A stretch of DNA of 64,000 bases from a virus (taxonomy: Duplodnaviria > Heunggongvirae > Uroviricota > Caudoviricetes): the IMG/VR virus record IMGVR_UViG_3300046820_001896, one strand, 5' to 3'. The number at the start of each line of letters is the position of its first letter. Position 1 is the stretch's first letter. This document shows, piece by piece, positions 1 to 38,423 of the stretch. The notes under the pieces were generated by a model that ran no database searches, had not been told where the DNA came from, and worked only from the letters and a program-made list of their open reading frames with translations. A program made the position numbers and the translations under genes.

Positions 1-149
1 GCGAAAAGCAAGTGTGCCAGCACCAGCGAATGTATCGAGTATGATTCTAAATGGTAACGTAGCAAAGAGGCCTTGCACTTTCTTCATACGGAAGCTAACA
101 TTGGTTCGAATCCAATCGTTACCACCAGTTGTTGATATATAATTAGTAC

Positions 150-224
150 GCCGGTTTAGCTCAGTGGTAGAGCAACCGCCTTGTAAGCGGTAGGTCGTCA
201 GTTCAATCCCGACAACCGGCACCA
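150..224 (+). tRNA. tRNA-Thr (anticodon TGT)
   Basis: Cloverleaf built by hand. Acceptor gccggtt/aaccggc, anticodon stem accgc/gcggt with loop cttgtaa, T-loop ttcaatc, 3' CCA encoded. Confidence 0.85.
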
Positions 225-232
225 AAGTTTTT

Positions 233-306
233 GCTCTATTCGTATATTGGTATTATATCGGTTTTGTAGTCCGACGAAGGTGGTTCGATTCCATCATGGA
301 GCACCA
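233..306 (+). tRNA. tRNA-like gene, paralogous scaffold to tRNA-Arg at 1124, probable anticodon TGT (loop tttgtag), degenerate
   Basis: Acceptor gctctat/atggagc pairs with two G-U. T-arm ggtgg-ttcgatt-ccatc is identical to the Arg gene. D-stem has only 3 bp, anticodon stem 4 bp plus one mismatch, variable loop 4 nt. Confidence 0.45.
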
Positions 307-316
307 ATAAATTTAT

Positions 317-393
317 CGGAGTGTAGCGCAGTCTGGTAGCGCACCTGGTTTGGGACCAGGGGGTCCAAGGTTCGAATCCTTGTACTCCGACCA
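317..393 (+). tRNA. tRNA-Pro (anticodon TGG)
   Basis: Acceptor cggagtg/tactccg, anticodon stem cctgg/ccagg with loop tttggga, T-arm caagg-ttcgaat-ccttg, CCA encoded. Confidence 0.85.
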
Positions 394-406
394 TTTAGGA
401 GTTAGT

Positions 407-598
407 ATGAGTGATGGTGGAAAAGGATGTAAACCAAGACCGTTTAGTGTATCACAAGATGAATATGATAAACGATGGGATACAATTTTTCAACGTGATC
501 TTCCAAAAGAAGAAAACGTTGAAGAAGTAAAAGATGAAAAAGAAGTAAAAATTAAAGCAACTATCCCAGATTTAAAAATCAAAGGTAGTGTAGATTAA
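407..598 (+). CDS. hypothetical small acidic protein (64 aa)
   Basis: The listed ORF 350-598 starts inside tRNA-Pro. ATG at 407 follows an RBS taggag. The sequence is Lys/Glu-rich. Confidence 0.45.
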   Translation: MSDGGKGCKPRPFSVSQDEYDKRWDTIFQRDLPKEENVEEVKDEKEVKIKATIPDLKIKGSVD

Positions 599-603
599 TA
601 TAT

Positions 604-679
604 GCGGGATTAGCTCAGTTGGTAGAGCGATACCTTGCCAAGGTATAGGTCGAGAGTTCGAGCCTCTTATCCCGCTCCA
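604..679 (+). tRNA. tRNA-Gly (anticodon GCC)
   Basis: Acceptor gcgggat/atcccgc, anticodon stem atacc/ggtat with loop ttgccaa, T-loop ttcgagc, CCA encoded. Confidence 0.85.
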
Positions 680-685
680 AATAAT

Positions 686-768
686 GCCCCGATGGTGGAA
701 TGGTAGACACGCTGGTCTTAGAAGCCAGTGCCTAGTGCGTGAGAGTTCGAGTCTCTCTTGGGGCACCA
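686..768 (+). tRNA. tRNA-Leu (anticodon TAG), type II with long variable arm
   Basis: Acceptor gccccga/ttggggc, anticodon loop cttagaa, long variable arm tgcctagtgcgtgag, T-arm gagag-ttcgagt-ctctc, CCA encoded. Confidence 0.85.
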
Positions 769-784
769 CATAATATAGGATGAT

Positions 785-1042
785 ATGATAAAGCCATTAC
801 GTAAGAACGTTATAATCGAAGAGATCGCTACTGAAAATGTATCGAGTTCAGGAATTATTCTACAAGGTAAACGCACTGATGTTAAACATTCAAAAGTGTT
901 AGCTATTGGAGATAACGTTACAGAAGTAAAAGTTGATGATGTAGTAGTAGTTGATTGGCAGTATGCATCAAAATCATCATATAAAGATAAAACGTTTTTT
1001 GTAATCGCAGAGGAAAATGTGATTGCAGTTGTAGAAGAATAA
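785..1042 (+). CDS. GroES-like co-chaperonin (functional analogue of T4 gp31)
   Basis: The 85-aa protein follows the GroES pattern (IKPL..V.I.....S.GIIL......H.KV.AIG.....VKV.D.VV). RBS aggatga precedes the start. Confidence 0.7.
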   Translation: MIKPLRKNVIIEEIATENVSSSGIILQGKRTDVKHSKVLAIGDNVTEVKVDDVVVVDWQYASKSSYKDKTFFVIAEENVIAVVEE

Positions 1043-1043
1043 T

Positions 1044-1119
1044 CCCAATTAAGCTAATCTAGTGAAAGCGCTGGTCTGAAAAGCCAGATAGTCTGGAGCG
1101 TAACCAGAAGTTGGGACCA
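1044..1119 (+). tRNA. tRNA-like element (76 nt, anticodon loop ctgaaaa = GAA) with non-canonical T-loop AGCGTAA
   Basis: 7-bp acceptor cccaatt/agttggg plus CCA. Anticodon stem ctggt/gccag. T-stem tctgg/ccaga is perfect but the loop agcgtaa lacks TTC, and the D-arm is atypical. Confidence 0.4.
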
Positions 1120-1123
1120 ATGC

Positions 1124-1198
1124 GCGCGATTAGTATAATGGACAATATTCGAGGCTACGAACTTCGAGATGGTGGTTCGATTCCATCATTGCGCACCA
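1124..1198 (+). tRNA. tRNA-Arg (anticodon ACG)
   Basis: Acceptor gcgcgat/attgcgc, D-stem gtat/atat, anticodon stem cgagg/cttcg with loop ctacgaa, T-arm ggtgg-ttcgatt-ccatc, CCA encoded. Confidence 0.8.
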
Positions 1199-1206
1199 GA
1201 GACAGT

Positions 1207-1301
1207 GCTCCTGTAGTTTAACGGTAAAACTCCAAGCTTATACCTTGGCGATGTCTCTAGATGAGGGAATGATATCGGTTCGAATCCGGTCGGGAGTACC
1301 A
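1207..1301 (+). tRNA. type-II-like tRNA (95 nt) with anticodon TAT and a 25-nt variable region; identity uncertain (Ile-UAU-like or a mutated Leu scaffold)
   Basis: Acceptor gctcctg/cgggagt with two G-U pairs. D-arm gttt-aacggta-aaac. Perfect anticodon stem ccaag/cttgg with loop cttatac. T-arm atcgg-ttcgaat-ccggt. Discriminator is A and CCA is encoded. Confidence 0.55.
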
Positions 1302-1309
1302 AAGTACTA

Positions 1310-1340
1310 CATGTACAAATTGTGTTGAATGTGATATAAT
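1310..1340 (+). promoter_or_regulatory. sigma70-like early promoter, member of reiterated family (cATGTACA -35-like, 17-nt spacer, TGtGaTATAAT extended -10)
   Basis: catgtaca at 1310-1317 and tataat at 1335-1340. The same architecture recurs about 10 times in the window, each time 20-45 nt upstream of a plus-strand ATG. Confidence 0.6.
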
Positions 1341-1365
1341 AGATTATACATTGTAAAGGAATAAT

Positions 1366-1941
1366 ATGCAAATCAATCTTCGTAAAGCAAACGCTATTCA
1401 GTCTGAAATCCGCAAGGCAATCAGCAGCGTAAAGGTAGAAAATAACATCACAGTAAGTGAATTCACTAGTGATGTAGATGCAGCTTTGAGTAAAGGTGCA
1501 TTAGAGTTCAACCAAGCGGTTGAACGTAAAGAAGCGCTTAACGATGCGCTATTCCAAATTCGTGCTGCAGTTGGTCGTGCAAACGCATCTGCAGGTATTA
1601 GCGATCTTTTGGCTGAAGTTGAAAACTTCGATGCGAAGATCAACCTAAAAACAGTTGTTGCAACAAGCACACCACGTAAAGAGATCACAGAGATCAATGC
1701 ACGTATCGTGAAAGCTAAGTCTGCTACTGGCGATAGAATGTCACTGTATGGTGATCGTCTAAGCAACGTAGAAACTGGTGTTGCAACAGAAGAAGCTATT
1801 CGCGTAGCTAAAGAGGAAGTAAAACGCCTTAAGCGCGAAAAGCAAGCATTAAGCGATAAGCTTTTGCAGTTGAATGTCAATACTCTAATTGAGTTGACAG
1901 ATAAAACAAAGGTAACTTTGACTGCAGAAGGCATTATCTAA
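1366..1941 (+). CDS. hypothetical protein (191 aa, predicted alpha-helical)
   Basis: RBS aaagga 8 nt upstream, and the promoter at 1310-1340 precedes it. The overlapping minus ORF 1398-1934 is rejected. Confidence 0.6.
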   Translation: MQINLRKANAIQSEIRKAISSVKVENNITVSEFTSDVDAALSKGALEFNQAVERKEALNDALFQIRAAVGRANASAGISDLLAEVENFDAKINLKTVVATSTPRKEITEINARIVKAKSATGDRMSLYGDRLSNVETGVATEEAIRVAKEEVKRLKREKQALSDKLLQLNVNTLIELTDKTKVTLTAEGII

Positions 1942-1944
1942 AGT

Positions 1945-2205
1945 TTTGAAGATAGTGATGATAGGAGAGCCTTGCATTTTGACAAGCGCACAAAACTATC
2001 CATTACTGGATAGGTTTAAGCCCTGAAAGCTTAATCCGAACAATCGACCAACTTATACATAATTGCTCTCGAATAACATGACTCGAAAAGTCGCTGCTTA
2101 TTGCTCTCGAGAACCAATTGTTTGTGGTCTGCTTATTGCAAATTGCTTAATGCAGATTGCTGAGCGACTTGTCGCAGGTTTGAATTGATTCATTATCTTC
2201 ATCTT
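1945..2205. repeat. non-coding region with short direct repeats (ttgctctcgaRaac x2, cttattgc x3) and hairpin gcgac-ttg-tcgc
   Basis: No ORF with a start and RBS in 260 bp. Repeats seen by eye. It sits between a CDS and tRNA-Trp. Confidence 0.4.
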
Positions 2206-2210
2206 AATAT

Positions 2211-2284
2211 GTCTCGGTGGTGTAATGGCAGCACTGCGGTCTCCAAAACCGTTAGTGGGGGTTCGAGTCCCTCCCGGGATGCCA
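2211..2284 (+). tRNA. tRNA-Trp (anticodon CCA)
   Basis: Acceptor gtctcgg/ccgggat, anticodon stem gcggt/accgt with loop ctccaaa, T-arm ggggg-ttcgagt-ccctc, CCA encoded. Confidence 0.8.
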
Positions 2285-2341
2285 AACAATGGCGTGGGTA
2301 GCAAGGAAAGATAGATTAGATTCTACACCTGCGTCGCCAAT

Positions 2342-2415
2342 GCGGGATTAGTTTAGTGGTAAAACGACATCCTTCCAAGTTGTAGTTGCGAGTTCGATTC
2401 TCGCATCCCGCTCCA
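2342..2415 (+). tRNA. tRNA-Gly (anticodon TCC)
   Basis: Perfect acceptor gcgggat/atcccgc. Anticodon stem acatc/gttgt has one internal mismatch, loop cttccaa. T-arm gcgag-ttcgatt-ctcgc, CCA encoded. Confidence 0.7.
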
Positions 2416-2443
2416 ATAAAGAATTGCTGCTAATTTTTAAAGA

Positions 2444-2677
2444 ATGTTTTATATAATAACTAAAGATGGTTTCACATTGAATGCTAGTCCAACGTTGGAT
2501 GATGCAATGATTTTTGCTAAACATTATGGACGGTTTGTAACCATCAAAGGGAAAGATTTTGAAGCATGTGGTGTATTTGGCGTAGATTCTATTAAAGACG
2601 GAATATGTCCAGATGGCATTGCATATGATTGGAATAAAAAATCACGCATTGGTCGTGTAAAGAAAGAACGTAAATGA
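2444..2677 (+). CDS. hypothetical protein (77 aa)
   Basis: ORF lying between tRNA genes, with a basic C-terminus. Confidence 0.45.
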   Translation: MFYIITKDGFTLNASPTLDDAMIFAKHYGRFVTIKGKDFEACGVFGVDSIKDGICPDGIAYDWNKKSRIGRVKKERK

Positions 2678-2705
2678 AACGAAAACATAAACCTCGAAAA
2701 CCTAT

Positions 2706-2780
2706 GGGGGTATAACTTAACGGCTAAAGTACCTGGCTTTTAACCAGATAATCAGAGTTCGATTCTCTGTGCCCCTACCA
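2706..2780 (+). tRNA. tRNA-Lys (anticodon TTT)
   Basis: Acceptor gggggta/tgcccct, D-stem actt/aagt, anticodon loop cttttaa, T-arm cagag-ttcgatt-ctctg, CCA encoded. Confidence 0.8.
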
Positions 2781-2818
2781 TAAATCAAAGTATATTCACT
2801 GAGTGTATTTCGATCTAT

Positions 2819-2892
2819 GGTGTTAGTAGTGTAGTGGCTGCACGATTGTCTGTGAAACAATAAGAGAGGGTTCGATTCCCCCTTTCACCCCA
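2819..2892 (+). tRNA. tRNA-His (anticodon GTG), with extra 5' G pairing to C73
   Basis: Perfect anticodon stem attgt/acaat with loop ctgtgaa. T-arm gaggg-ttcgatt-ccccc. Acceptor has two internal T-T mismatches and the CCA is only partly encoded. Confidence 0.55.
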
Positions 2893-3568: not shown

Positions 3569-3577
3569 ATCAACGAA

Positions 3578-3602
3578 TGGAGGCTTATGCCTCCATTTTT
3601 TT
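3578..3602 (+). terminator. rho-independent terminator
   Basis: Hairpin tggaggc-ttat-gcctcca followed by TTTTTTT. Confidence 0.75.
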
Positions 3603-4162: not shown

Positions 4163-4172
4163 AGTACTACAT

Positions 4173-4200
4173 GTACAGCAGGATATTTTTGTGGTATAAT
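4173..4200 (+). promoter_or_regulatory. sigma70-like early promoter of the catgtaca...tgtggtataat family
   Basis: tgtaca at 4173-4178, 16-nt spacer, tgtggtataat with tataat at 4195-4200. The flanking aaagtactacatgtaca is identical to that at 1301-1317. Confidence 0.6.
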
Positions 4201-4224: not shown

Positions 4225-5157
4225 ATGCGTATTGCAGTAGCCAGTGATGTGCACCTAGAATTTGGTCCACTACTATTAAAAAATGAACAGAATGCAGATG
4301 TGCTTATCTTGAGTGGTGACATCTGCACAGCTAAAGGTCTTGACTATGCTGCAGGAAGCGGCATGTATGGTGATACGTATTCTACTTCTAAAAATCAACG
4401 ATTCATCGACTTCTTCAAAGCAATAACATTTCAATTTCCTCATGTGATCTATGTGTTAGGAAATCACGAGAGCTACAACTTTGATATCAAGTACACAGCT
4501 AAACACATCAAAGAACAGTTGCAACAATTCACAAACTTGTATGTTCTTGATGATGAATGTAAAAAAATTGATGATGTAACTTTCATCGGTGGTACCATGT
4601 GGACTGATATGAATAAAGAAGATCCACTAACATTATTTCATATCAAGAGCAGAATGAATGACTTCCGCGTTATCAAAAATGGTAATCGTGAAGTATTTCG
4701 CACTGTACCAATCTATGAATACAATGAAGATGGTAGCTTAAAGAAAGATGAGAATGGCTACAATATCCCAATTGGTCATAAGAAAAAGGCTGAAGTAGCA
4801 TCATTTAGCCCAGAAGATTCTGTTGAAATGCATAAAAGATTTAAACAGTATGTCGAAGTAGTTACAGATTTTTTAGGTGAGAATCCTAACAAATATGTTG
4901 TATGTACACATCATAGTCCTAGTTTTCAAAGTATGGCTCCATGGTATGCGAACGATCAACTAATGAATGGTGCATATCATAGTAATTTAGAAGAATTGAT
5001 GGAACGTCGTCCATGTATCAAATTGTGGACACATGGACATACACATGAACCATTCGACTATATGGTACACAACACAAGAGTTGTTTGTAATCCACGTGGT
5101 TATATTGGTCATGAACAACGCGCAAGAGATTTTGAATTAAAATACGTGGACGTTTAA
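4225..5157 (+). CDS. calcineurin-like metallophosphoesterase
   Basis: Motifs DVHLE, GDI, GNHE, HH, GHTH. Confidence 0.8.
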   Translation: MRIAVASDVHLEFGPLLLKNEQNADVLILSGDICTAKGLDYAAGSGMYGDTYSTSKNQRFIDFFKAITFQFPHVIYVLGNHESYNFDIKYTAKHIKEQLQQFTNLYVLDDECKKIDDVTFIGGTMWTDMNKEDPLTLFHIKSRMNDFRVIKNGNREVFRTVPIYEYNEDGSLKKDENGYNIPIGHKKKAEVASFSPEDSVEMHKRFKQYVEVVTDFLGENPNKYVVCTHHSPSFQSMAPWYANDQLMNGAYHSNLEELMERRPCIKLWTHGHTHEPFDYMVHNTRVVCNPRGYIGHEQRARDFELKYVDV

Positions 5158-5604
5158 ATGGTAAACAAATCTTGGGTATTAGATGTGCATGAAGGTGAAG
5201 ACGGTGATAAATACATAGTCTTCACCGAAGAAATGCTTGAGGCCTCTGGATTTAAATTAGGTGATGAACTTGATTGGATTAATAATCATGATGGGAGTTG
5301 GACTTTGACTAAGAAACAAGATAAAGTATGGGTAATGGTTGAGTGTGTATCTACATTTCGTATGCGATACATGGTTGAAGCACCAGCAGATCATCCAGAA
5401 TATGCGCTAGATGATGTAACTATGGAAACTGCAAAAGAGTTTTCACAAGAGTTTATCGGTGAACAAATTATGTCTCATCGAGTAGTTACCGAAAAGCAAG
5501 CTTTAGAAATCTGCGATATAGATAACAACTATTGTCAAGATTGGACTAAAGCTCAAAAAATCAAAGCATTCTTTACTAAAGAAGGCGAAAAGAAGGATTA
5601 TTAA
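5158..5604 (+). CDS. hypothetical protein
   Basis: ORF directly adjacent to the stop of the upstream gene. Confidence 0.5.
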   Translation: MVNKSWVLDVHEGEDGDKYIVFTEEMLEASGFKLGDELDWINNHDGSWTLTKKQDKVWVMVECVSTFRMRYMVEAPADHPEYALDDVTMETAKEFSQEFIGEQIMSHRVVTEKQALEICDIDNNYCQDWTKAQKIKAFFTKEGEKKDY

Positions 5605-5825
5605 TGGGTGATATTCTACACGGTGCAATGGGTAACGAAAATGAACGTCGTTATAAACAAGCAGTCGAAAGATTGAGCACAAAAGGATATGAAGAAATTT
5701 ATTTGTTATTAAAAGATATTCAAATGGATGTACAAACTTTGTATTATGATGAACGCCTTTCACTCACAAGAAATCAATGGGCTGCAATTTCTCGAATTCA
5801 TAATATAATGAAAGATTTGACATGA
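5604..5825 (+). CDS. hypothetical protein (73 aa)
   Basis: ORF with a start/stop overlap of the neighbouring gene. Confidence 0.45.
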   Translation: MGDILHGAMGNENERRYKQAVERLSTKGYEEIYLLLKDIQMDVQTLYYDERLSLTRNQWAAISRIHNIMKDLT

Positions 5826-6520
5826 AAGTAAATATTGGTCCATATGTAAATTGGGTTGGACCGTATCAAATCGCTGATAAAATTTTTTTCTGGGTTGAAA
5901 AATATCCAGAGGAAGAACTTGAAAATCGTTGGGATTATAAACTTCATGATAAGTTTGGCACATGGTTAGCTTCTACTTGGGTTGCAGATTTTTGCCAGTG
6001 GGTTCATAATTTCCAAAAACGAAAAGTAAAAGTAAAGATTGATTATTACGATCATTGGTCGTGTGATGCAACACTAGCACCAATCGTTTTACCATTACTT
6101 AAAAGCCTTAAAGAACACAAACATGGATCAGGTTATATTGAATTAGAAGATGTACCTGAAGCTATGCGTTTAACTAGCACAGAAGATTATGATGCTCAAT
6201 CAACATTTGAGTTTTATAATGATCCTGATTTAACGCGTCAAAATATTCAGTGTGATATTCATACTCGTTATGAATGGGTATTAGATGAAATGATTTGGGC
6301 ATTTGAACAGCTCAATGATGATAATTGGGAAGAACAATATTGGATCACACATCCAGAGATTGACTTTACTGAGTATCCAGAAGACGAAGGTAAAACTTCA
6401 AAACCGCTTCGTTGGAAAGTTAAAGGTGAATGTGATTGGGTAGGACGTCAGAAACATCAAGATCGTATCAATAATGGACTGCGTTTATTTGGTAAGTATT
6501 TTCAAACTTTATGGGATTAA
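5822..6520 (+). CDS. hypothetical protein (232 aa, Trp-rich)
   Basis: ORF with ATGA overlap of the upstream gene. Confidence 0.55.
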   Translation: MKVNIGPYVNWVGPYQIADKIFFWVEKYPEEELENRWDYKLHDKFGTWLASTWVADFCQWVHNFQKRKVKVKIDYYDHWSCDATLAPIVLPLLKSLKEHKHGSGYIELEDVPEAMRLTSTEDYDAQSTFEFYNDPDLTRQNIQCDIHTRYEWVLDEMIWAFEQLNDDNWEEQYWITHPEIDFTEYPEDEGKTSKPLRWKVKGECDWVGRQKHQDRINNGLRLFGKYFQTLWD

Positions 6521-6708
6521 TTATGTTAAAACTTTTATTCGTTGTTGCAATTGTTGTTATCATTATTGCATGTGGTCCAATCGCAACTATTCTATCGCTA
6601 AACACACTGTTTAATCTTGCAATTCCTATTACATTTGATACATGGATCTCTGCATTTTGGTTAGCAGCAGTGGTTGGTGGAACAATCAGTTATTCAAAGA
6701 GCAAATAA
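6511..6708 (+). CDS. small membrane protein with 2-3 predicted TM helices, holin candidate
   Basis: 65 aa and hydrophobic. It begins a run of small membrane ORFs upstream of the PAAR and endolysin genes. Confidence 0.35.
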   Translation: MGLIMLKLLFVVAIVVIIIACGPIATILSLNTLFNLAIPITFDTWISAFWLAAVVGGTISYSKSK

Positions 6709-7043
6709 TGGATCTACTAATTGGTATAGTAACAGGAGTTATATTAACTCTTATTGTGTTAAATATTCTTGCTAAAGCTGTTGATGAAATTAGAAATAAA
6801 CAACTCGACAAGAAACTAGAAGAAGGGTTACAAAAGCTTAGAGAAGTTGTAATTCCTAGTCGCATCGAAGTAGTCAATGGCATGTTGTTTTTGTACAACA
6901 AAGAAAATGGCGAATTCATAGCACAAGGTAAAAACTTCATTGAGTTAAACGATAATGCAAAAGCTCGTTATCCTGAGAAACTATTTAATGTACCTCAAAA
7001 CGAGATTGATGCAGTAACTAAAGGAATATCAATAAAGGTATGA
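6708..7043 (+). CDS. N-terminal TM plus coiled-coil protein (i-spanin-like)
   Basis: Internal start MDLLIGIVTG at 6708 overlaps the preceding stop (taATGg). One TM helix followed by a helical periplasmic region. Confidence 0.4.
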   Translation: MDLLIGIVTGVILTLIVLNILAKAVDEIRNKQLDKKLEEGLQKLREVVIPSRIEVVNGMLFLYNKENGEFIAQGKNFIELNDNAKARYPEKLFNVPQNEIDAVTKGISIKV

Positions 7044-7315
7044 TTAACGATAATAAATTTTATACGATAGTTGTAGCTATTACTATTTTACTTGGTGGAT
7101 GCATTGCATGGGGAATTATTTCAAGTAATAATCGTGCAGAAGCTGTTAAGTTGGCTTTAGAAAAAGGTCAAAATCCATTATATGTTAAGTGTTCAATGAA
7201 TACTACAACAACAGAAGAGTGCCAATCTATGATTATGGCTATGTCACTCTCAGGTCAATTTAAGGACGCCTCAGCTCCTATTTCAGTCTCACCAGCAAGT
7301 TACCCTAAAAAGTAA
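7040..7315 (+). CDS. putative lipoprotein (o-spanin candidate)
   Basis: Signal peptide with LLGGC lipobox. Start overlaps the upstream gene (ATGA). Confidence 0.35.
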   Translation: MINDNKFYTIVVAITILLGGCIAWGIISSNNRAEAVKLALEKGQNPLYVKCSMNTTTTEECQSMIMAMSLSGQFKDASAPISVSPASYPKK

Positions 7316-7346
7316 TATAAATACAGATATCTAAAAGGATATCTGT
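7316..7346 (+). promoter_or_regulatory. T4-type late promoter motif TATAAATA (7316-7323) followed by perfect 9-bp inverted repeat acagatatc/gatatctgt that covers the RBS
   Basis: TATAAATA, then hairpin 7323-7346 with a 6-nt loop containing aaagg, then ATG at 7347. Confidence 0.5.
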
Positions 7347-7673
7347 ATGCCAGGAATTGCTAGAGTTGGTGTTGACAAAGCCGGTGGAGTAGTCACCGGT
7401 AATTTAGCTCCCACAGTTTTCGTAAATGGTTCACCTATCGTAGTGATAGGTGCAACTATTGCAGGTCACGGACTTGCTCCTCACGCTTCTCCAACTATGG
7501 TTGAAGGAGCTGTTGACGTGTTTGCGAATGGTATAGGTATATGTAGAACTGGCGATTTGGCATCGTGCGGTCATGCTATTTCAGGTTCAGATAATGTATT
7601 AACAGGATTTTACCCAAATCCGGGACCTACACGATTTGGTATTTCGAAATTTGGTGTGGAGAAACAAGGATAA
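7347..7673 (+). CDS. PAAR-repeat spike-tip protein (gp5.4-like)
   Basis: Repeated ...GSP.V.I.G...A..GD.....C..GH...GS..V. motifs typical of PAAR domains. Confidence 0.75.
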   Translation: MPGIARVGVDKAGGVVTGNLAPTVFVNGSPIVVIGATIAGHGLAPHASPTMVEGAVDVFANGIGICRTGDLASCGHAISGSDNVLTGFYPNPGPTRFGISKFGVEKQG

Positions 7674-7674
7674 T

Positions 7675-8094
7675 ATGGCATTAAAATATGCAGATAACGT
7701 TGGATCACAATTATTTGATCCTATTGGAGAAACAGATACTTTTGTAGTAGTAGAATCTGTTACATCATTTCCAGCAAATATATCACCAACTGATTTTGCT
7801 GTAGCAACTATTGCTAACGATGATAATAGTTTAACAGAATCGATTAAAATTACTTTTATTGATCGTCCTACTAGAACATTGACAATAGAACGAGGATACG
7901 ATGATTCGACACCGCGCAATTGGCCAAAAGGATCTAAATTAGAAATTCGTATTTCATCTGGTTTTTTCAGAGCATTTGAAGAACAGGTAAATACATATAC
8001 CGACGATGCAATTTCTGCATTAGAAACTTCATCGAATACAACAACAGAAGCTAAATCTAAAGCAGCATTTGCAGTTGCTTTTGTATTAAGCTAA
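7675..8094 (+). CDS. hypothetical protein
   Basis: ATG 7675 has RBS aaggataat. The listed ORF start 7636 is an upstream extension. Confidence 0.5.
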   Translation: MALKYADNVGSQLFDPIGETDTFVVVESVTSFPANISPTDFAVATIANDDNSLTESIKITFIDRPTRTLTIERGYDDSTPRNWPKGSKLEIRISSGFFRAFEEQVNTYTDDAISALETSSNTTTEAKSKAAFAVAFVLS

Positions 8095-8103
8095 GGAGAT
8101 TAA

Positions 8104-8733
8104 ATGTCTTTTGATTTTGAATTTACGCAAGAAAAACTTGCACACGTTATTCCTAACGCAAAGTATGGAGTAGAAACATGGCACAAAGAATTGGTAGAAC
8201 TTTTACCAGTTTTTGAAATTACTACAGTTGGTCGTGTTGCTGCATTTGTTGCGCAAACTGCTCATGAATCTGGTGGTTATACAGCACTAAAAGAAAACTT
8301 AAACTATAGTGCTGAAGGTTTGCATAAACTATGGCCAAATCGTTTCCCAACGGTTGAGTCAGCTATGCCTTATAATCGTAATCCGCAAGCTATCGCTAAT
8401 AAAGTTTACTCATCACGTATGGGTAACGGAGATGAACATAGCGGTGAAGGTTGGTTGTATTGCGGTCGTGGTCTACTACAATTGACTGGTAAAGCAAACT
8501 ATTCTGCATTCGCACAATACGCAGGTATGTCAGTAGAAGATGCACCTGAATATATCGAATCTCCACGCGGTGCTGTACACTCAGCATGTTGGTTCTGGTA
8601 TTCAAATGACTTGAATACATACGCAGATGCTGGTGATTTCACTGGTATGACTAAGCGTATCAATGGTGGTACAATCGGTTTAGACGATCGTATCAAACAT
8701 TATAATCACGCTGTAGAGATTTTCTCAGCGTAA
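8104..8733 (+). CDS. glycoside hydrolase family 19 endolysin (resembles Acinetobacter-phage endolysins such as LysAB2)
   Basis: AAFVAQTAHESGG ... NLNYSA ... GRGLLQLTGKANY ... ACWFW ... RINGG motif series, as in GH19 phage lysins. Confidence 0.75.
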   Translation: MSFDFEFTQEKLAHVIPNAKYGVETWHKELVELLPVFEITTVGRVAAFVAQTAHESGGYTALKENLNYSAEGLHKLWPNRFPTVESAMPYNRNPQAIANKVYSSRMGNGDEHSGEGWLYCGRGLLQLTGKANYSAFAQYAGMSVEDAPEYIESPRGAVHSACWFWYSNDLNTYADAGDFTGMTKRINGGTIGLDDRIKHYNHAVEIFSA

Positions 8734-8768
8734 CATAATATACACACTTTAACATAAGGAATGTTACA

Positions 8769-9002
8769 ATGAAAAAATTAATGTTAGCATTAGCGATTAC
8801 GTTTGGTATGACTAGTGTTTATGCTGCTGATCCAAAACCAGCACCGAAATTAGATTGCACAAAACCAGCAAATAAGAGTAAAGGTCCATGTCTTAAAGCA
8901 CCTGAGTCAAAAACAAAGGTAGAGATTAAGAAACCTGAGAAAAAGAAAGCTGCACCTGCTGCAACACAAAAGAAAGCTGCAGAAAATAACGCTAAACAAT
9001 AA
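8769..9002 (+). CDS. small secreted Lys-rich protein (signal peptide, cleavage near VYA-AD)
   Basis: N-terminal signal peptide, followed by a terminator. Confidence 0.5.
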   Translation: MKKLMLALAITFGMTSVYAADPKPAPKLDCTKPANKSKGPCLKAPESKTKVEIKKPEKKKAAPAATQKKAAENNAKQ

Positions 9003-9058: not shown

Positions 9059-9085
9059 AAAGGGGACGAAAGTCCCCTTTTTTTA
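9059..9085. terminator. bidirectional rho-independent terminator
   Basis: aggggac-gaaa-gtcccct followed by TTTTTT on the plus strand. It separates convergent plus and minus gene blocks. Confidence 0.75.
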
Positions 9086-12768: not shown

Positions 12769-12853
12769 GGTTTTTCCTGTTTTAGTTATTATAATGAAAC
12801 CAGTGGCATTTTTTGCCACCATGACACTTATTGTTATTTATAAATAAAAGCAT

Positions 12854-13363
12854 ATGAAAACGCACATTTTAGGCAATGGTCCTTCCAATATATTATATGA
12901 ACCAAGCGATGGATACGTAATCGGTTGTAATGTACAAACCCATCCAGTTGATATATCAATTGCTGTTGATATAAAACCATTCCATTTGTACATGGCAAAT
13001 AGGATGATTTTTCAAGGTAAACCTATCATCACTTCTCAATATGCTATGGATGGAATTAAACATAAAGACATTGAGAAAGAACTAGACATCATTTATAAGT
13101 TACCTTTTTTAGAAAAATATATGAGTGCAGGTCATATCGCTGCAAAATGGGCAATTGATAATGGATACACAGAAATTCATCTATGGGGATTTGACTCAAT
13201 TTGGTCAGATAGCCAAGAAACAAAAACTGACATACTAATTCCTAGAGATAGACGGCAACACGACTTACCTATCCATTGGAGAGAAAAATGGCAACAATTT
13301 AAAACATACAACATAATCGTGCATAACACAATAGAAGGCACACAACTGAAAGACTTAATATGA
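12854..13363 (+). CDS. hypothetical protein (169 aa)
   Basis: ORF preceded by the palindromic tatttataaata motif. Confidence 0.5.
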   Translation: MKTHILGNGPSNILYEPSDGYVIGCNVQTHPVDISIAVDIKPFHLYMANRMIFQGKPIITSQYAMDGIKHKDIEKELDIIYKLPFLEKYMSAGHIAAKWAIDNGYTEIHLWGFDSIWSDSQETKTDILIPRDRRQHDLPIHWREKWQQFKTYNIIVHNTIEGTQLKDLI

Positions 13364-13742: not shown

Positions 13743-13771
13743 TGTACAAACTGCAGGAAACGCTGTATAAT
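13743..13771 (+). promoter_or_regulatory. sigma70-like promoter of the catgtaca...tgtataat family
   Basis: tgtaca at 13743-13748, 17-nt spacer, tgtataat ending 13771. Confidence 0.55.
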
Positions 13772-14312: not shown

Positions 14313-14316
14313 GCAT

Positions 14317-14344
14317 GTACAAACAAGAAAAAGTGTGGTATAAT
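14317..14344 (+). promoter_or_regulatory. sigma70-like promoter of the catgtaca...gtgtggtataat family
   Basis: tgtaca at 14317-14322, 16-nt spacer, tataat at 14339-14344, ending 5 nt before ATG 14350. Confidence 0.55.
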
Positions 14345-19006: not shown

Positions 19007-19607
19007 TGGCTTCACAGCATACCAAAAGTATATTGCAATTAAGTTGCACTTTGAATCAAAGACGTATGACTATTTCAAATACAATGGTAAATCGAGCGTA
19101 ACTCCTAAATCATTCTTTGCTCGTAGAGATAAGTACTTCTTTGCGAAACTAGTGAGGACGTATGGCATCGACGAGTTACCATACTTTTTTGCTTGTAACT
19201 TTGCACATCATGGTACGAAGTGGGTTGGTGGATTAACTGACGATCAAGCTGATGAGACGTATAAGTCTTATAAAAGTTTGTTAGAAAGTTTCACATATCG
19301 CTTCAAAAATGATATAGATAAAATTATATCGGTGAACGACTTCAAAAGTTTGTTTGTGGTAGAGGATGGACAACATCCTAAACTCGTTAAGATGTTAATT
19401 CAAAACGAGATACCACTCGAGACCTTTGTTGTCCTTAATCGATACATAGACTTCATGCCGAAGTTCGACAAAGAGATAACAGATCCCATCATGTGGCCTG
19501 ATATCTCGCTGAAGATCAGAAAGTATGATAAGTTTATTTCGGTGAATAACAAAAAAGTCGCAGAGGCGTTAAAAGATTGTTTACAATCGAATGCCGTTGT
19601 GGTATAA
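18987..19607 (+). CDS. gp59-like helicase loader
   Basis: RRDKYFFAKL and ETFVVLNRYIDFM correspond to T4 gp59 RRDKYFFQKL and ETFILLDSFLNII. It sits immediately upstream of the gp32-like gene, as in T4. Confidence 0.7.
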   Translation: MSYSSIDGFTAYQKYIAIKLHFESKTYDYFKYNGKSSVTPKSFFARRDKYFFAKLVRTYGIDELPYFFACNFAHHGTKWVGGLTDDQADETYKSYKSLLESFTYRFKNDIDKIISVNDFKSLFVVEDGQHPKLVKMLIQNEIPLETFVVLNRYIDFMPKFDKEITDPIMWPDISLKIRKYDKFISVNNKKVAEALKDCLQSNAVVV

Positions 19608-19608
19608 T
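19581..19608 (+). promoter_or_regulatory. sigma70-like promoter (ttacaa ... ttgtggtataat)
   Basis: ttacaa at 19581-19586, 16-nt spacer, tgtggtataat with tataat at 19603-19608. Confidence 0.5.
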
Positions 19609-22566: not shown

Positions 22567-22595
22567 TGTACAGCAGAGAATAAATGTGGTATAAT
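22567..22595 (+). promoter_or_regulatory. sigma70-like promoter (tgtaca ... aatgtggtataat)
   Basis: tgtaca at 22567-22572, 17-nt spacer, tataat at 22590-22595. Confidence 0.55.
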
Positions 22596-33812: not shown

Positions 33813-33820
33813 ACTTCTAT

Positions 33821-35922: not shown

Positions 35923-37181
35923 TGGCAGCATTAGGTAAATTAGACTATTCGATAGATGAAGCAACACTGACTTCGTCTACTGGTGAAGTATTCAAATTTA
36001 AAGATTTGATTAGTGGTATAGACATATATGAATCATTATTATCTCCATATATTAAAGTGGATTTAACAATTGGTGATGCCGCAAACTTATTTGAAACTGC
36101 TCCAATTATTGGACAAGAAAAAGTTGAATTGACTATCACTGAAGGTCCACATAAAATTACTAGAACATTTTATGTTGCTGGTATGTCAAACTTTATCAAA
36201 GGCAATAATCAAGCCACAATGTATGTGTTGAAATTGATTACGCCTGAACAAATGATGAATAGTTTGTTATTGGTTTCGCAATCATTTAGCGGTACTATCG
36301 ATCAATCTATCGAACAAATTGTAAAAGATTATTTAAAAAGTAAAATTGCCAATAAAGAACAATCTGCTGGTAATTACAGCGTTGTCATTCCAAATTGGAA
36401 TCCATTTCAAGCTATCGATTGGTTAGCTCGTAGAGCAATGACTGCAAAGAAAATGCCATTTGCTTTTTATGAAACATGGAAAGATGGTTTTCAGTTTGAA
36501 TCATATGAATCTATGTTCAAAAAGAAAGTGTACAATAAATTTGTTCATAAAGGTGGTACAACTGCAGAGAGTGATGCTGAAAACCAAGCTGCATCATATA
36601 ACGTTGCATTTGAATATGATTTAGCAGACTATGCTAATACGCATAAAAATACATTACGTGGAACGTTTGGTTCTGGTATGTGGGTAATTGATATTGCAAC
36701 TAAGACATATAAGTTTGTTCAATATAATTATGAAAAAGATTTTGATAAAAAAGATCATTTAGATAAAAAAGCTTTCGTTAACCCAGATTTTAAAGTAAAT
36801 GGTAAAAAAATATCTGAATACGATTCTATTCATCATGTAGTTAATAAAAATACAAAAGCATTTGGTGAAAAAGCTACTAATAATTATAACAATGAAGCAG
36901 AATACACAAAACTTGAAGGCGATCCATTCATTTATCAACTAACATTAAACAAAATGAACTTAGCTGTTCGTGGAAGATGTGATTTAAGCCCAGGTAAGAT
37001 TATTGATTTTGCTGTAGATAGAGCTAAACCTTCTGTATATGGTAATACTAAAGATGAGAACGAATATATTTCTGGCAAGTATCTTGTATTAAATACTCAC
37101 CACAAATTAGCATCTGGTAAATTTGTAACTATTTTTGATGCTGTTCGTGATTCTCTTGGTAAGAAAGTGAAAAAAGCATAA
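35922..37181 (+). CDS. baseplate hub protein (gp27-like)
   Basis: Immediately upstream of, and translationally coupled to, the gp5-like spike gene. Confidence 0.45.
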   Translation: MAALGKLDYSIDEATLTSSTGEVFKFKDLISGIDIYESLLSPYIKVDLTIGDAANLFETAPIIGQEKVELTITEGPHKITRTFYVAGMSNFIKGNNQATMYVLKLITPEQMMNSLLLVSQSFSGTIDQSIEQIVKDYLKSKIANKEQSAGNYSVVIPNWNPFQAIDWLARRAMTAKKMPFAFYETWKDGFQFESYESMFKKKVYNKFVHKGGTTAESDAENQAASYNVAFEYDLADYANTHKNTLRGTFGSGMWVIDIATKTYKFVQYNYEKDFDKKDHLDKKAFVNPDFKVNGKKISEYDSIHHVVNKNTKAFGEKATNNYNNEAEYTKLEGDPFIYQLTLNKMNLAVRGRCDLSPGKIIDFAVDRAKPSVYGNTKDENEYISGKYLVLNTHHKLASGKFVTIFDAVRDSLGKKVKKA

Positions 37182-38422
37182 TGAAAAACTATATGAATTG
37201 GTGGACTGGTGTTGTAGAAGATCGCGCAGATCCACAAGAATTGGGTCGTGTGCGTGTTCGTATTTTTGGACATCATACCGATGATATTGATAAAATTAAA
37301 TTAGGTGATTTGCCATGGGCTCATGTGATGATGCCTACTACATCTGCATCTATTTCAGGTTTAGGTTGGTCACCGACAGGTTTAGTTGAAGGTTCATGGG
37401 TTGTTGGTTTCTTCGCTGACGGAGAAAATTGCCAAGATCCTATTGTGTTAGGTTCTATTCATGGATATCCAACTCAACCAGGTGAAGAGAAAAAAGCTTT
37501 TAAGGATTACACAGGTGCATATCCTCGTTGGTTAAATGACACCGATGTATCATATACTGCGCGTGGAAAATGGAAAGAACACCAATCGTATTTTGCAAGA
37601 TATGGTGAAATGGTTAAAGGCATTGAGCAATCAACAAAGCCCACATTAAAAACTGTTGATGCTGATGCAACTGATGAAGCACGTCAAACTTGGGATGAAC
37701 CAGAACCAAGACGTGGAGTTCCAGGAGCATATCCGTTTATTCATACTTACGAATCTGAATCTGGAATTGTCAGAGAAATAGATGATACTAATGCTGCTTC
37801 GCGTATTACTGAATATCATCCAGCTGGCACATTTTATGAAATTTTACCAGATGGCGATAAAGTAACTAAAGTTTCAGGTGATAATTATGAAATTATTATT
37901 GCATCTGATAATATTTTAGTTCGTGGCACTAGAACAACTACTATTGAAGGTGATTGTCGTCATCTTGTAAAAGGTGATTACATCGTCGAAGTAATGGGCG
38001 ATTATAATTTAAAAGTGCATGGTAATAGAAATACTAAAGTTACTTTAAATGATAATATGGAAGTAGTAGGTAATTATAACTTAAACGTTGCTGAAGATTT
38101 TTTAACACGTGTTGGTAAAAACCAAACATTATTAATTGACGTTGATAAAACTGAAAGTATTGGTGGAAAATCTACATTAACTGTAACTGGTACAGTTGAT
38201 TTGGTGCTTTTAGATACGTATAGTATGTTCTCTAATGGAGCACAACAAATATCAACAAATTCTACACAACAATTTTTATCAAAAGATGGATTAAATATTG
38301 GATCTGAAGCTGCAACAGTTGTTAAGTGTAATTCAAATATGACTTATGAAGTTTCTGGAACATTCAATATTAATGCTGGTCCAACATTCCAAGTTTTAGC
38401 AGATAAGATAGAGTTGAACTAA
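37181..38422 (+). CDS. baseplate central spike (T4 gp5-like OB-fold N-terminus plus beta-helix, no lysozyme domain)
   Basis: WWTGVVEDRADPQELGRVRVRIFG ... DLPWAHVMMPTTSASISGLG ... GLVEGSWVVGFF matches T4 gp5 NWFVGVVED...GRVRVRVHG...DLPWMSV..P.TSAAMSGIG. The C-terminus carries VxGxxxxxV repeats. Confidence 0.85.
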   Translation: MKNYMNWWTGVVEDRADPQELGRVRVRIFGHHTDDIDKIKLGDLPWAHVMMPTTSASISGLGWSPTGLVEGSWVVGFFADGENCQDPIVLGSIHGYPTQPGEEKKAFKDYTGAYPRWLNDTDVSYTARGKWKEHQSYFARYGEMVKGIEQSTKPTLKTVDADATDEARQTWDEPEPRRGVPGAYPFIHTYESESGIVREIDDTNAASRITEYHPAGTFYEILPDGDKVTKVSGDNYEIIIASDNILVRGTRTTTIEGDCRHLVKGDYIVEVMGDYNLKVHGNRNTKVTLNDNMEVVGNYNLNVAEDFLTRVGKNQTLLIDVDKTESIGGKSTLTVTGTVDLVLLDTYSMFSNGAQQISTNSTQQFLSKDGLNIGSEAATVVKCNSNMTYEVSGTFNINAGPTFQVLADKIELN

Positions 38423-38423
38423 T

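What the first reader, a model, noticed from the sequence alone, without database searches (positions are those of the whole stretch)
7316..7673. PAAR spike-tip gene located 30 kb from the gp5-like spike, with an RBS-sequestering hairpin
In T4 the PAAR protein gene (5.4) directly follows gene 5. Here the PAAR gene sits in the lysis/early-late transition region. A perfect 9-bp inverted repeat (acagatatc...gatatctgt) is placed between a late-promoter motif and the start codon and pairs over the RBS. This implies separate, possibly translationally gated, expression of the spike tip.
Basis: seen in the sequence. Interest (0 to 1): 0.5.

Follow-up and report, generated by a model that had tools for sequence, protein, structure and literature searches.

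The report
Late-only translation gate on PAAR gene
A T4-like phage keeps its spike-tip (PAAR) gene 30 kb from the spike gene, just downstream of predicted early genes, and most likely restricts its translation to late infection with the promoter-inside-a-hairpin design known from the T4 lysozyme gene: a well-conserved new example of a known mechanism.

Summary
ORF 7347-7673 is a PAAR spike-tip protein (Pfam above its cut-off; E 3e-18 to the solved phiKZ tip protein). The only gp5-like spike gene in the window is 29.5 kb away. The inverted repeat is longer than reported: a 12-bp stem (7321-7332 / 7337-7348, -13.6 kcal/mol), the longest perfect hairpin in the window.

One detail changes the interpretation. 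The hairpin does not lie between the promoter and the start codon. Its 5' arm begins inside TATAAATA (7316-7323) and its 3' arm ends inside the AUG. With T4 geometry, late transcripts would start near 7329 and lack the 5' arm. Only read-through transcripts from the co-directional upstream cluster would fold; that cluster has an early-type promoter at 4172 and no predicted terminator. The cost of opening the translation start is 15.8 kcal/mol in the long transcript and 4.2 in the late one. T4 gene e gives 15.8 and 4.7/2.0.

Promoter plus hairpin is conserved in 15 distinct metagenomic relatives, with compensatory changes at four stem positions. Relatives whose PAAR gene follows gp5 lack it.

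Verdict: a T4 gene e / I-TevI-type temporal translation gate on a relocated PAAR gene. It is a new member of a known kind, of modest interest. Transcript ends and virion content are untested.

The parts
4172..4200 (+). Early-type (sigma-70-like, extended -10) promoter TGTACA-N17-TGgTATAAT in the 62-nt gap before gene 4225. Predicted source of read-through transcripts.
   Evidence: one of seven + strand copies of aTGTACA-N17-TGnTATAAT in the window (1312, 4172, 13743, 14316, 19580, 22567, 28983). Conserved before the phosphoesterase gene in L001, L006 and L008. Function is inferred from sequence only.
4225..7315 (+). Tightly packed co-directional gene cluster: a metallo-phosphoesterase, several unknowns and three small membrane proteins. 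No gene has a late-promoter motif within 40 nt upstream of its start, and no + strand terminator is predicted. Putative early/middle unit that runs into the PAAR gene.
   Evidence: ORFs. phrog_1649 metallo-phosphoesterase. No + strand terminator-like site between 4019 and 8570. No ATAAATA within 40 nt upstream of these starts. Synteny conserved in L001, L002, L003, L005, L006 and L008.
7316..7323 (+). T4-type late promoter box TATAAATA. Its last three bases are the first three bases of the hairpin's 5' arm.
   Evidence: Positional enrichment P 1.3e-8. Invariant in all 15 distinct relatives.
7329..7329 (+). Predicted late transcription start: the A six nt after the box, inside the 5' arm. Inferred, not mapped.
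   Evidence: T4 late promoters are an 8-bp TATA box at the -10 position, about one helical turn upstream of the start (PMC2988020). The sixth base after the box is A in 14 of 15 relatives.
7321..7332 (+). 5' arm of the hairpin (AUACAGAUAUCU).
7333..7336 (+). Loop AAAA, which is the A-rich part of the Shine-Dalgarno region AAAGGA (7334-7339).
7337..7348 (+). 3' arm (GGAUAUCUGUAU). It contains the GGA of the Shine-Dalgarno sequence and the AU of the AUG start codon.
   Evidence: Opening energy of -13..+4 is 15.8 kcal/mol in the long transcript, rank 1 of 90 genes.
7347..7673 (+). PAAR spike-tip protein gene, 108 aa: PAAR domain in residues 1-87 plus a 21-aa C-terminal extension.
   Evidence: 85 homologues, of which those at 69% identity or more are 108-110 aa and most more distant ones are 86-90 aa.
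7675..8094 (+). 139-aa protein resembling the N-terminal domain of tail-fibre proteins, starting 1 nt after the PAAR stop. Probable late structural gene of the same unit.
   Evidence: phrog_8469 'tail fiber protein', E 8.6e-9. In L093 and L097 the gene in this position is 250-344 aa with Gp10_C or Gp53-like_C domains. In L093 that protein also matches phrog_8469 over its first ~110 residues. The same N-terminus (44% identity over residues 1-99) is found after the PAAR gene in the related locus L006.
8104..8733 (+). GH19 (chitinase class I-type) endolysin with no N-terminal membrane segment.
   Evidence: Pfam PF00182. phrog_181 endolysin, E 4e-78.
8769..9002 (+). Small 77-aa protein with an N-terminal signal-peptide-like segment. 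Last gene of the unit, function unknown.
   Evidence: Translation. No PHROG match.
9059..9080 (.). Bidirectional intrinsic-terminator-like hairpin (AAAGGGGACGAAAGTCCCCTTT plus a T-run) that closes the late unit against the convergent - strand genes.
37181..38422 (+). gp5-like central spike: OB fold plus C-terminal beta-helix, no lysozyme domain and no HxH motif near the C-terminus. Presumed partner of the PAAR protein.
   Evidence: The HxH criterion comes from PMC12407873.
38424..39713 (+). 429-aa protein (N-terminal region with no family match, Pro/Lys-rich linker, GH19 domain) occupying the slot between gp5 and gp25, where relatives carry the PAAR gene.
   Evidence: Relatives L034, L036, L039 and L040 have gp5-PAAR-gp25-gp6. 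Melnitz has a PAAR-like gene directly after its gp5 lysozyme gene.

Best explanation
ORF 7347-7673 encodes the PAAR cone that caps the gp5 beta-helix spike. In this lineage the gene has left the baseplate cluster. It now heads a small late unit (PAAR, a tail-fibre-like protein, a GH19 endolysin, a small secreted protein, then a terminator at 9059-9080). This unit lies directly downstream of, and co-directional with, a cluster driven by a sigma-70-type early promoter.

Transcripts that start upstream and read through contain both arms of a 12-bp hairpin. The hairpin buries the GGA of the Shine-Dalgarno sequence and the AU of the AUG, so 30S subunits cannot load and PAAR is not made early.

The late promoter box TATAAATA overlaps the 5' arm. 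Late RNA polymerase would therefore start about 6 nt after the box, near A7329. The late mRNA would have an 18-nt leader that lacks most of the 5' arm, leaving the ribosome-binding site open, so PAAR is translated only late, together with the other tail parts.

Shown here: protein identity, hairpin stability, promoter-motif enrichment, geometry, conservation and covariation, and the contrast with relatives. Inferred: the late start site, the existence of read-through transcripts, and the actual translational block.
For: 1. Identity: Pfam PAAR above its gathering cut-off, and PDB 6P1Z_D phiKZ spike tip at E 3e-18.

2. Hairpin: 12 bp, -13.6 kcal/mol, z -8.25. It is the longest perfect hairpin in the window. 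Its translation-start opening energy ranks 1 of 90 genes (15.8 kcal/mol against mean 5.6, sd 3.0).

3. TATAAATA behaves as a real promoter motif in this phage. Seven of 8 copies lie within 50 nt upstream of same-strand starts, including gp48 and gp8 (P 1.3e-8).

4. Geometry matches T4 gene e, computed side by side. In T4 e the TATAAATA boxes lie in the 5' strand of the SD/AUG hairpin. Opening energy is 15.8 (long) against 4.7 and 2.0 (late) for T4 e, and 15.8 against 4.2 for the window. The T4 mechanism is experimentally documented for e and I-TevI and listed for soc and 49 (PMC3014915).

5. Read-through is plausible. There is an early-type promoter at 4172-4200, one of a family of seven + strand copies in the window. 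It is conserved in relatives. No + strand terminator is predicted between 4019 and 8570.

6. Conservation: 15 distinct sequences keep the box plus hairpin ending at the AUG, although the stems differ (cagatatc, ctgatatc, gagatatc, gtaatatc, gtagtat, gtactatt). Their PAAR proteins are 67-87% identical to the window's. 89% of cells are paired, against 16-55% when the partner is slid. Four pairs show double changes in 16 cells. No shuffle of 500 reached the observed paired fraction, double-change cell count or covariation score, although 115 of 500 reached the count of four such pairs. Mean opening energy in the relatives is 11.4 (long) against 5.5 (late).

7. Specificity: the other six late-promoter sites in the window have no such hairpin. 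They sit at divergent junctions or inside the structural-gene block. Relatives whose PAAR gene directly follows gp5 have an ordinary SD and no hairpin: L034, L039/L040 and Melnitz.
Against: No transcript 5' ends, RNA structure probing or translation data exist for this phage, and the late sigma factor (gp55 homologue) is not in the window.

The start-site position is transferred from T4. A start 2-3 nt earlier would leave a 6-bp residual stem.

In two relatives (L087, L088) the computed opening energy of the late transcript is no lower than that of the long one.

The temporal class of the upstream cluster rests only on promoter motifs.

Covariation cannot separate an RNA hairpin from a DNA palindrome. 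G.U and A.C cells are equally rare, 3 against 3 outside the loop-closing pair.

The two genes downstream of PAAR are not gated (opening energies 4.6 and 8.1). It is therefore unclear why PAAR alone must be silenced early.

A syntenic sister clade (L006, L069, L093, L097, L099) lacks the hairpin.
Confidence: 0.72

Rival explanations
1. Attenuator of the late mRNA. The late transcript includes the hairpin, which permanently or conditionally damps translation so that only a little PAAR is made, since one copy per virion is needed.
For: The hairpin is stable and covers the SD and AUG. PAAR is a single-copy virion protein in T4 (PMC12407873). The late start site is not mapped here. If transcription started at 7327, a 6-bp residual stem would remain.
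Against: The 5' arm begins inside the TATA box. T4-type late promoters place the box at the -10 position, about one helical turn upstream of the start (PMC2988020), so the full stem cannot be transcribed from this promoter. With a start at 7329-7330 the translation-start opening energy falls to 4.2 kcal/mol, which is ordinary for this genome. The same overlap of box and 5' arm is kept in all 15 relatives.
Confidence: 0.1
2. DNA-level palindrome: the inverted repeat is an operator for a dimeric DNA-binding protein that regulates the late promoter, or another DNA site. The RNA fold would be incidental.
For: Compensatory changes preserve DNA symmetry as well as RNA pairing. Wobble pairs do not discriminate between the two. 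The repeat overlaps the promoter box.
Against: The distance between the arms varies from 4 to 11 nt among relatives, which is unusual for a dimeric operator. The stem sequence itself is not conserved; only complementarity is. The 3' arm is always locked to the SD and AUG, ending between -1 and +2 of the start codon. T4-type late promoters are described as a simple TATA box with no other conserved element (PMC2988020).
Confidence: 0.06
3. RNA-end element: either a - strand terminator for antisense read-through, or a 3'-end protective or processing hairpin for the upstream early mRNA.
For: The scan lists the same stem on the - strand followed by TTATATTACT as terminator-like. The hairpin lies exactly at the end of the upstream gene cluster.
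Against: There are only 3 G-C pairs. No - strand gene is nearby, and a strong bidirectional terminator already sits at 9059-9080. On the + strand no U-run follows the stem (AUGCCAGGAAUU). A terminator would not need to end precisely at the start codon in every relative. There is no Rfam match.
Confidence: 0.05
4. Chance palindrome in AT-rich intergenic DNA.
For: The region is AT-rich, and the core AGATATCT is self-complementary.
Against: The expected number of perfect hairpins of 11 bp or more is 0.19 per window. z is -8.25. The hairpin is conserved with compensatory changes in 15 diverged sequences.
Confidence: 0.01

Closest known systems
T4 gene e (lysozyme) translation-start hairpin with embedded late promoters (reviewed in PMC3014915)
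   Same: A late gene lies downstream of co-directional earlier genes. A stable hairpin buries the SD and AUG. The TATAAATA box lies in the strand that encodes the 5' arm, so late transcripts lack that arm. Computed opening energies are nearly identical: 15.8 (long) against 4.7 and 2.0 (late) for T4 e, and 15.8 against 4.2 here. An endolysin belongs to the same late unit here.
   Different: The gated gene is a PAAR spike tip, not the lysin. There is one promoter box rather than two. The phage is an uncultured relative only about 40% identical in gp6 to Melnitz and the Pelagibacter/cyano T4-like phages. The review found no such structure before gene e outside the close T-even relatives. Nothing has been tested experimentally here.
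T4 I-TevI, soc and gene 49, and Aeh1 mobE: RBS-sequestering hairpins (PMC3014915)
   Same: The same logic of silencing early or middle read-through transcripts and translating from a late promoter proximal to the hairpin's 5' portion.
   Different: Those genes are homing endonucleases, a capsid decoration protein and a recombination endonuclease. None is a baseplate or spike gene.
T4 gene 5.4 / phiKZ gp163.1: PAAR spike-tip proteins (PMC12407873; PDB 6P1Z)
   Same: A small protein of about 90-110 aa with a single PAAR domain and conserved His/Cys motifs. It is 44% identical to the phiKZ tip protein over 87 residues. It is predicted to cap a gp5-type beta-helix that ends without an HxH motif.
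   Different: T4 5.4 lies 1.1 kb after gene 5, immediately before gene 6, and is reported to be expressed from late promoters. Here the gene is 29.5 kb from gp5, has its own late promoter and gate, and carries a 21-aa C-terminal extension. The slot after gp5 is filled by a GH19 protein.

Membership tests
PAAR-repeat spike-tip proteins (Pfam PF05488) | Sequence match to the PAAR_motif profile above the curated cut-off | tested here: met
   28.9 bits against a cut-off of 27, E 1.3e-6. phrog_281, E 2.3e-16.
PAAR-repeat spike-tip proteins (Pfam PF05488) | Full-length homology to a structurally solved phage spike-tip PAAR, with the conserved His/Cys motifs | tested here: met
   6P1Z_D (PHIKZ163.1), E 3.1e-18, residues 1-87 aligned to 1-87. 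AGHG..PH and ASCGH are identical in the alignment. Their assignment as metal ligands rests on general knowledge and was not tested.
PAAR-repeat spike-tip proteins (Pfam PF05488) | A partner trimeric beta-helix spike with a free blunt tip is encoded in the same genome | tested here: met
   gp5-like 37181-38422 with Gp5_OB, Gp5_trimer_C and Gp5_C. No HxH motif near the C-terminus.
PAAR-repeat spike-tip proteins (Pfam PF05488) | Physical presence on the spike in the virion | not testable with these tools
   Needs virion mass spectrometry or cryo-EM.
T4 gene e-type temporal translation gate (late promoter embedded in an RBS-sequestering hairpin) | A T4-type late promoter box immediately upstream of the gene, in a phage that uses such promoters | tested here: met
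   TATAAATA at 7316-7323. Seven of 8 copies in the window are correctly placed upstream of genes, P 1.3e-8. The box is invariant in relatives. No gp55 homologue was found among the window proteins scanned, and smaller ORFs were not scanned.
T4 gene e-type temporal translation gate (late promoter embedded in an RBS-sequestering hairpin) | A stable intramolecular helix that includes the Shine-Dalgarno sequence and/or the start codon | tested here: met
   12-bp stem covering the GGA of the SD and the AU of the AUG, -13.6 kcal/mol. Opening energy 15.8 kcal/mol, rank 1 of 90. This is prediction only.
T4 gene e-type temporal translation gate (late promoter embedded in an RBS-sequestering hairpin) | The late transcript starts inside or after the 5' arm, so it cannot form the helix | tested here: inconclusive
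   The geometry fits: the box overlaps the 5' arm, and box+6 is A7329. The start site was not mapped and the spacing is borrowed from T4.
T4 gene e-type temporal translation gate (late promoter embedded in an RBS-sequestering hairpin) | Earlier transcripts from upstream promoters extend through the gene | tested here: inconclusive
   An early-type promoter at 4172-4200 is conserved in relatives, and no terminator is predicted before 7316. There are no transcript data.
T4 gene e-type temporal translation gate (late promoter embedded in an RBS-sequestering hairpin) | The helix lowers translation from long transcripts | not testable with these tools
   Needs reporter fusions or toeprinting.
T4 gene e-type temporal translation gate (late promoter embedded in an RBS-sequestering hairpin) | The structure is maintained by selection in relatives | tested here: met
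   In 15 distinct sequences, 89% of cells are paired against 16-55% when slid. Four pairs carry compensatory changes. No shuffle of 500 reached the observed paired fraction, double-change cell count or covariation score. The alignment was fitted to the model, which favours the structure.

The most novel reading that the evidence does not exclude
In this group of T4-like phages the late promoter box may serve as a translational switch in two interchangeable ways.

In the window's clade it is embedded in an RBS-sequestering hairpin.

In the syntenic sister clade (L006, L069, L093, L097, L099) the PAAR gene has no SD and no conserved hairpin. Instead it has an invariant GATAAATA-gatac-ATG, which puts the T4-type start site exactly on the A of the AUG. 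That would give a leaderless late mRNA, while the same AUG inside an early read-through transcript would lack any ribosome-binding signal.

The same box-N5-7-ATG arrangement precedes gp25, gp2 and two other genes in the window. The gp2 case is conserved in phage Melnitz but absent from T4. If this is true, leaderless late mRNAs would be a regular feature of this branch of T4-like phages.
Probability: 0.2. Interest if true: 0.55.

Novelty: new member of a known kind. Interest (0 to 1): 0.3.

Why it matters
The 'late promoter inside an RBS hairpin' design was worked out for T4 lysozyme and I-TevI. The review read here could trace it only among close T-even relatives. This case shows it maintained by selection, with compensatory changes, in distant uncultured T4-like phages recovered only from metagenomes, and on a different class of gene.

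It gives a sequence-only rule for assigning a late temporal class to genes stranded in early regions of metagenomic phage genomes.

It also documents that the spike-tip gene can leave the baseplate cluster. In doing so it acquires its own promoter and gate, while a GH19 lysin gene takes its place next to gp5. This is relevant to how spike complexes are remodelled.

Tried and rejected
- Megablast of 6500-8800 against the phage collection found nothing. The phage has no close cultured relative.
- An Rfam scan of 6800-8200 at E up to 1 gave no family.
- A scan of viral contigs with gp5 as a single query returned only one near-identical locus. The gp5 neighbourhood of more distant clade members could therefore not be compared.
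- The look-up of P0040 found no record.
- Literature searches for mapped late start sites in cyano or marine T4-like phages, and for leaderless late mRNAs, gave nothing usable.
- I tried to use G.U against A.C cells to decide between an RNA hairpin and a DNA palindrome, or between strands. The counts are equal and uninformative.
- The idea that the repeat is two direct copies of a palindromic operator (AGATATCT is self-complementary) was rejected. In relatives the arms (GTAATATC / GATATTAC) are not self-complementary, and only the inverted symmetry is kept.
- The TATAAATA before the PAAR gene of L018/L060 was set aside. That locus is not syntenic with the window: its PAAR gene directly follows a 190-aa ORF inside a tightly packed run of + strand ORFs, and the motif lies inside that upstream ORF.
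- PHROG scans of the larger window ORFs found gp59, gp32, gp2, gp4, gp26, gp29-like and gp54-like proteins but no gp55 or gp33. The late transcription machinery could not be confirmed within the window.

Full report
**What is there**

The window comes from a T4-like phage. It has a tRNA cluster of 12 genes at 53-2891. It encodes gp59 and gp32 homologues, and gp4, gp2, gp26 and a tape-measure-like protein. A baseplate block encodes gp48, gp53, gp5, gp25, gp6, a gp7-like protein and gp8. There is no nucleotide-level match in the phage collection. Its gp6 is only about 42% identical to Methylophilales phage Melnitz and about 40% to Pelagibacter phages HTVC008M and Mosig.

ORF 7347-7673 (108 aa) is a genuine PAAR protein:
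- Pfam PAAR_motif at 28.9 bits against a cut-off of 27.
- phrog_281 at E 2e-16.
- E 3e-18 over residues 1-87 to the solved phiKZ 'PAAR-repeat central spike tip protein' 6P1Z_D, with the AGHG..PH and ASCGH motifs identical in the alignment.

The only gp5-like gene is at 37181-38422 (OB fold plus beta-helix, no lysozyme domain). That is 29.5 kb away. Its C-terminus has no HxH motif, which by the criterion quoted in PMC12407873 is compatible with a separate tip protein. The slot between gp5 and gp25 holds a 429-aa GH19 protein instead.

**The hairpin**

RNAfold gives a 12-bp stem, 7321-7332 with 7337-7348, and loop AAAA. The 28-nt element alone folds at -13.6 kcal/mol, z -8.25. It is the only perfect hairpin of 11 bp or more in the 64 kb, against 0.19 expected.

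The stem contains the GGA of the Shine-Dalgarno region AAAGGA and the first two bases of the AUG. The energy needed to open positions -13 to +4 in a long transcript is 15.8 kcal/mol. This is the highest of 90 genes in the window (mean 5.6, sd 3.0).

**The promoter**

TATAAATA occurs 8 times, which is no more than chance. Placement, however, is far from random. Seven of the 8 copies lie within 50 nt upstream of a same-strand start codon, including gp48 and gp8. Other A/T-only 8-mers do so 5.6% of the time (P 1.3e-8). The motif therefore behaves as the T4-type late promoter in this phage.

**The decisive geometric point**

The hairpin is not between the promoter and the start codon. Its 5' arm begins at 7321, inside the box at 7316-7323. 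T4 late promoters are an 8-bp TATA box at the -10 position, about one helical turn upstream of the start (PMC2988020). This places +1 about six bases after the box, at A7329.

A transcript starting there keeps at most four bases of the 5' arm. Its translation-start opening energy is 4.2 kcal/mol, and its fold is no better than shuffled sequence.

The full hairpin can therefore exist only in transcripts that start further upstream. Such transcripts are plausible:
- Genes 4225-7315 are tightly packed on the same strand.
- They are preceded by a sigma-70-type extended -10 promoter at 4172-4200. It is one of seven + strand copies of aTGTACA-N17-TGnTATAAT in the window, and it is conserved before the same gene in relatives.
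- No + strand terminator-like site is predicted between 4019 and 8570.

**Comparison with the known mechanism**

This is the arrangement described for T4 gene e. Early transcripts extend into e and form a structure that sequesters the ribosome-binding site and lowers lysozyme synthesis 100-fold. Transcripts from the late promoters lack the 5' part of the structure and are translated well. The same holds for I-TevI and is listed for soc and gene 49 (PMC3014915).

I fetched the T4 e leader and computed it the same way. Its TATAAATA boxes lie in the 5' strand of an SD/AUG hairpin. The opening energies are 15.8 (long) against 4.7 and 2.0 (late), almost the same numbers as here.

**Conservation**

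Searches of viral and metagenome contigs, plus look-ups of homologous proteins, gave many loci. A syntenic clade keeps the order phosphoesterase ... small membrane proteins - PAAR - fibre-like gene - GH19 endolysin.

Fifteen distinct sequences keep an invariant TATAAATA followed by a hairpin that ends at the AUG. Their PAAR proteins are 67-87% identical to the window's. The stem sequences differ (cagatatc, ctgatatc, gagatatc, gtaatatc, gtagtat, gtactatt), and the loops vary from 4 to 11 nt.

On a covariance-model alignment:
- 89% of cells form pairs, against 16-55% when the partner is slid.
- Four pairs carry compensatory double changes, in 16 cells.
- No shuffle of 500 reached the observed paired fraction, double-change cell count or covariation score, although 115 of 500 reached the count of four such pairs.

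Caveat: this alignment was fitted to the structure, and the sequences are related, so the shuffle counts overstate significance.

The sixth base after the box is A in 14 of the 15 sequences. Mean opening energy is 11.4 (long) against 5.5 (late). Two sequences (L087, L088) show no difference.

**Context dependence**

- The other late-promoter sites in the window have no comparable structure. They lie at divergent junctions (12835/12839, 34264) or inside the structural-gene block (43032, 59648, 62351), where no earlier co-directional transcript needs silencing.
- T4-like relatives that keep the order gp5-PAAR-gp25-gp6 (L034, L036, L039, L040) have no such hairpin before the PAAR gene. L034, L039 and L040 also lack a promoter box there; L036 has a GATAAATA 5 nt before its ATG.
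- Melnitz, the nearest cultured relative, has a 98-aa PAAR-like gene 8 nt after its gp5 lysozyme gene, with a plain GGAG SD.
- In T4, gene 5.4 is 1.1 kb after gene 5 (behind 5.1, segC and 5.3) and immediately before gene 6. It is reported as expressed from late promoters (PMC12407873).

The promoter-plus-hairpin thus appears where the gene has been moved behind earlier genes.

**The rest of the unit**

The gene after PAAR (7675-8094) matches the N-terminal part of tail-fibre proteins (phrog_8469). In sister-clade loci it is replaced by longer proteins with Gp10_C or Gp53-like_C domains. Next come a GH19 endolysin (8104-8733), a small signal-peptide protein, and a bidirectional terminator at 9059-9080. 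The translation starts of the fibre-like gene and the endolysin are not sequestered (4.6 and 8.1 kcal/mol). The gate is specific to PAAR, and why PAAR in particular must be silenced early is not explained.

**Rivals**

- A permanent attenuator of the late mRNA requires a start site upstream of the box's own 3' end, which T4-type geometry excludes.
- A DNA operator cannot be excluded by covariation or by wobble pairs. It fits poorly with the variable arm spacing, with conservation of complementarity only, and with the strict locking of the 3' arm to the SD and AUG.
- A - strand terminator was flagged by the scan. It is weak (3 G-C pairs), has no - strand gene to serve, and lies behind a strong terminator.
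- Chance is excluded by conservation.

**Verdict**

The feature is best filed as a new, well-conserved example of the T4 gene e / I-TevI-type temporal translation gate, attached to a relocated PAAR spike-tip gene. It is not a new kind of mechanism. Transcript ends, translation and virion composition remain untested.

Noticed in passing
L006:3983-4003, L069, L093:1483-1503, L097, L099 (sister clade of the window's PAAR locus): In this syntenic sub-clade (PAAR 56-60% identical) there is no e-type hairpin and no SD. All five distinct sequences share an invariant GATAAATAGATACATG. The upstream gene's TAG stop lies inside it, and the sixth base after the ATAAATA box is the A of the PAAR ATG. With T4 spacing, the late mRNA would be leaderless.
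   Followed up: partly
window 39709-39727 (gp25), 33810-33828 (- strand, gp2), 62351-62367, 12839-12856: Four genes have an ATAAATA box only 5-7 nt before their ATG, and every such pattern in the window falls on the first start codon of a called gene. The gp2 version (CATAAATAgaagtATG) is matched by TATAAATAgaggtATG before the corresponding gene, next to the head-completion gene, in phage Melnitz. T4 gene 2 has an ordinary SD instead. These may be leaderless or near-leaderless late mRNAs.
   Followed up: partly
window 1312-1340, 4172-4200, 13743-13771, 14316-14344, 19580-19608, 22567-22595, 28983-29011 (+): A family of near-identical sigma-70-like extended -10 promoters, aTGTACA-N17-TG(g/a)TATAAT. 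At least five of the seven lie in gaps just upstream of + strand genes; the 13743 and 14316 copies overlap called ORFs. The copies at 1312 and 4172 also share AAGTACTACA upstream. These are likely the phage's early promoters.
   Followed up: partly
window 37181-39713: The gp5 homologue lacks the lysozyme domain that T4 gp5 carries. The next gene encodes a 429-aa protein whose first ~210 residues have no family match, followed by a Pro/Lys-rich linker and a GH19 domain. It is 38% identical to the endolysin at 8104-8733. It looks like a tail-associated lysin supplied in trans, sitting where relatives have the PAAR gene.
   Followed up: partly
window 3575-3598: A 10-bp G+C-rich hairpin followed by a T-run (terminator-like on both strands) has the SD GGAGG in its 5' arm and the ATG of gene 3587 in its loop. 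It gives the second-highest translation-start opening energy in the window, 14.7 kcal/mol.
   Followed up: no
window 53-2891: A cluster of 12 tRNA genes (Met, Thr x2, Pro, Gly x2, Leu, Arg, Ile, Trp, Lys, His) lies at the left end of the window. Several 'ORFs' called there are spurious.
   Followed up: no
window 7608-7670 (PAAR residues 88-108): The PAAR protein carries a 21-aa C-terminal extension (FYPNPGPTRFGISKFGVEKQG) beyond the domain. It is shared by the 108-110-aa homologues at 69% identity or more and by a 109-aa group at 56-60%, but is absent from the 86-90-aa homologues, some of which also keep the hairpin.
   Followed up: no
window 31178-31627 (- strand): A 149-aa protein between the gp26-like hub gene and the tape-measure-like gene matches a holin family (phrog_3427, E 6.8e-9). 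It is far from the endolysin at 8104.
   Followed up: no
window 7347-7673 compared with other phages: The PAAR protein is closer to PAAR proteins of unrelated Pseudomonas and Xanthomonas phages (Dolphis 61%, phiXF1 53%, phiKZ 44%) than to the PAAR-like protein of the nearest cultured T4-like relative, Melnitz (33%). This hints at replacement by a foreign copy rather than simple relocation.
   Followed up: no
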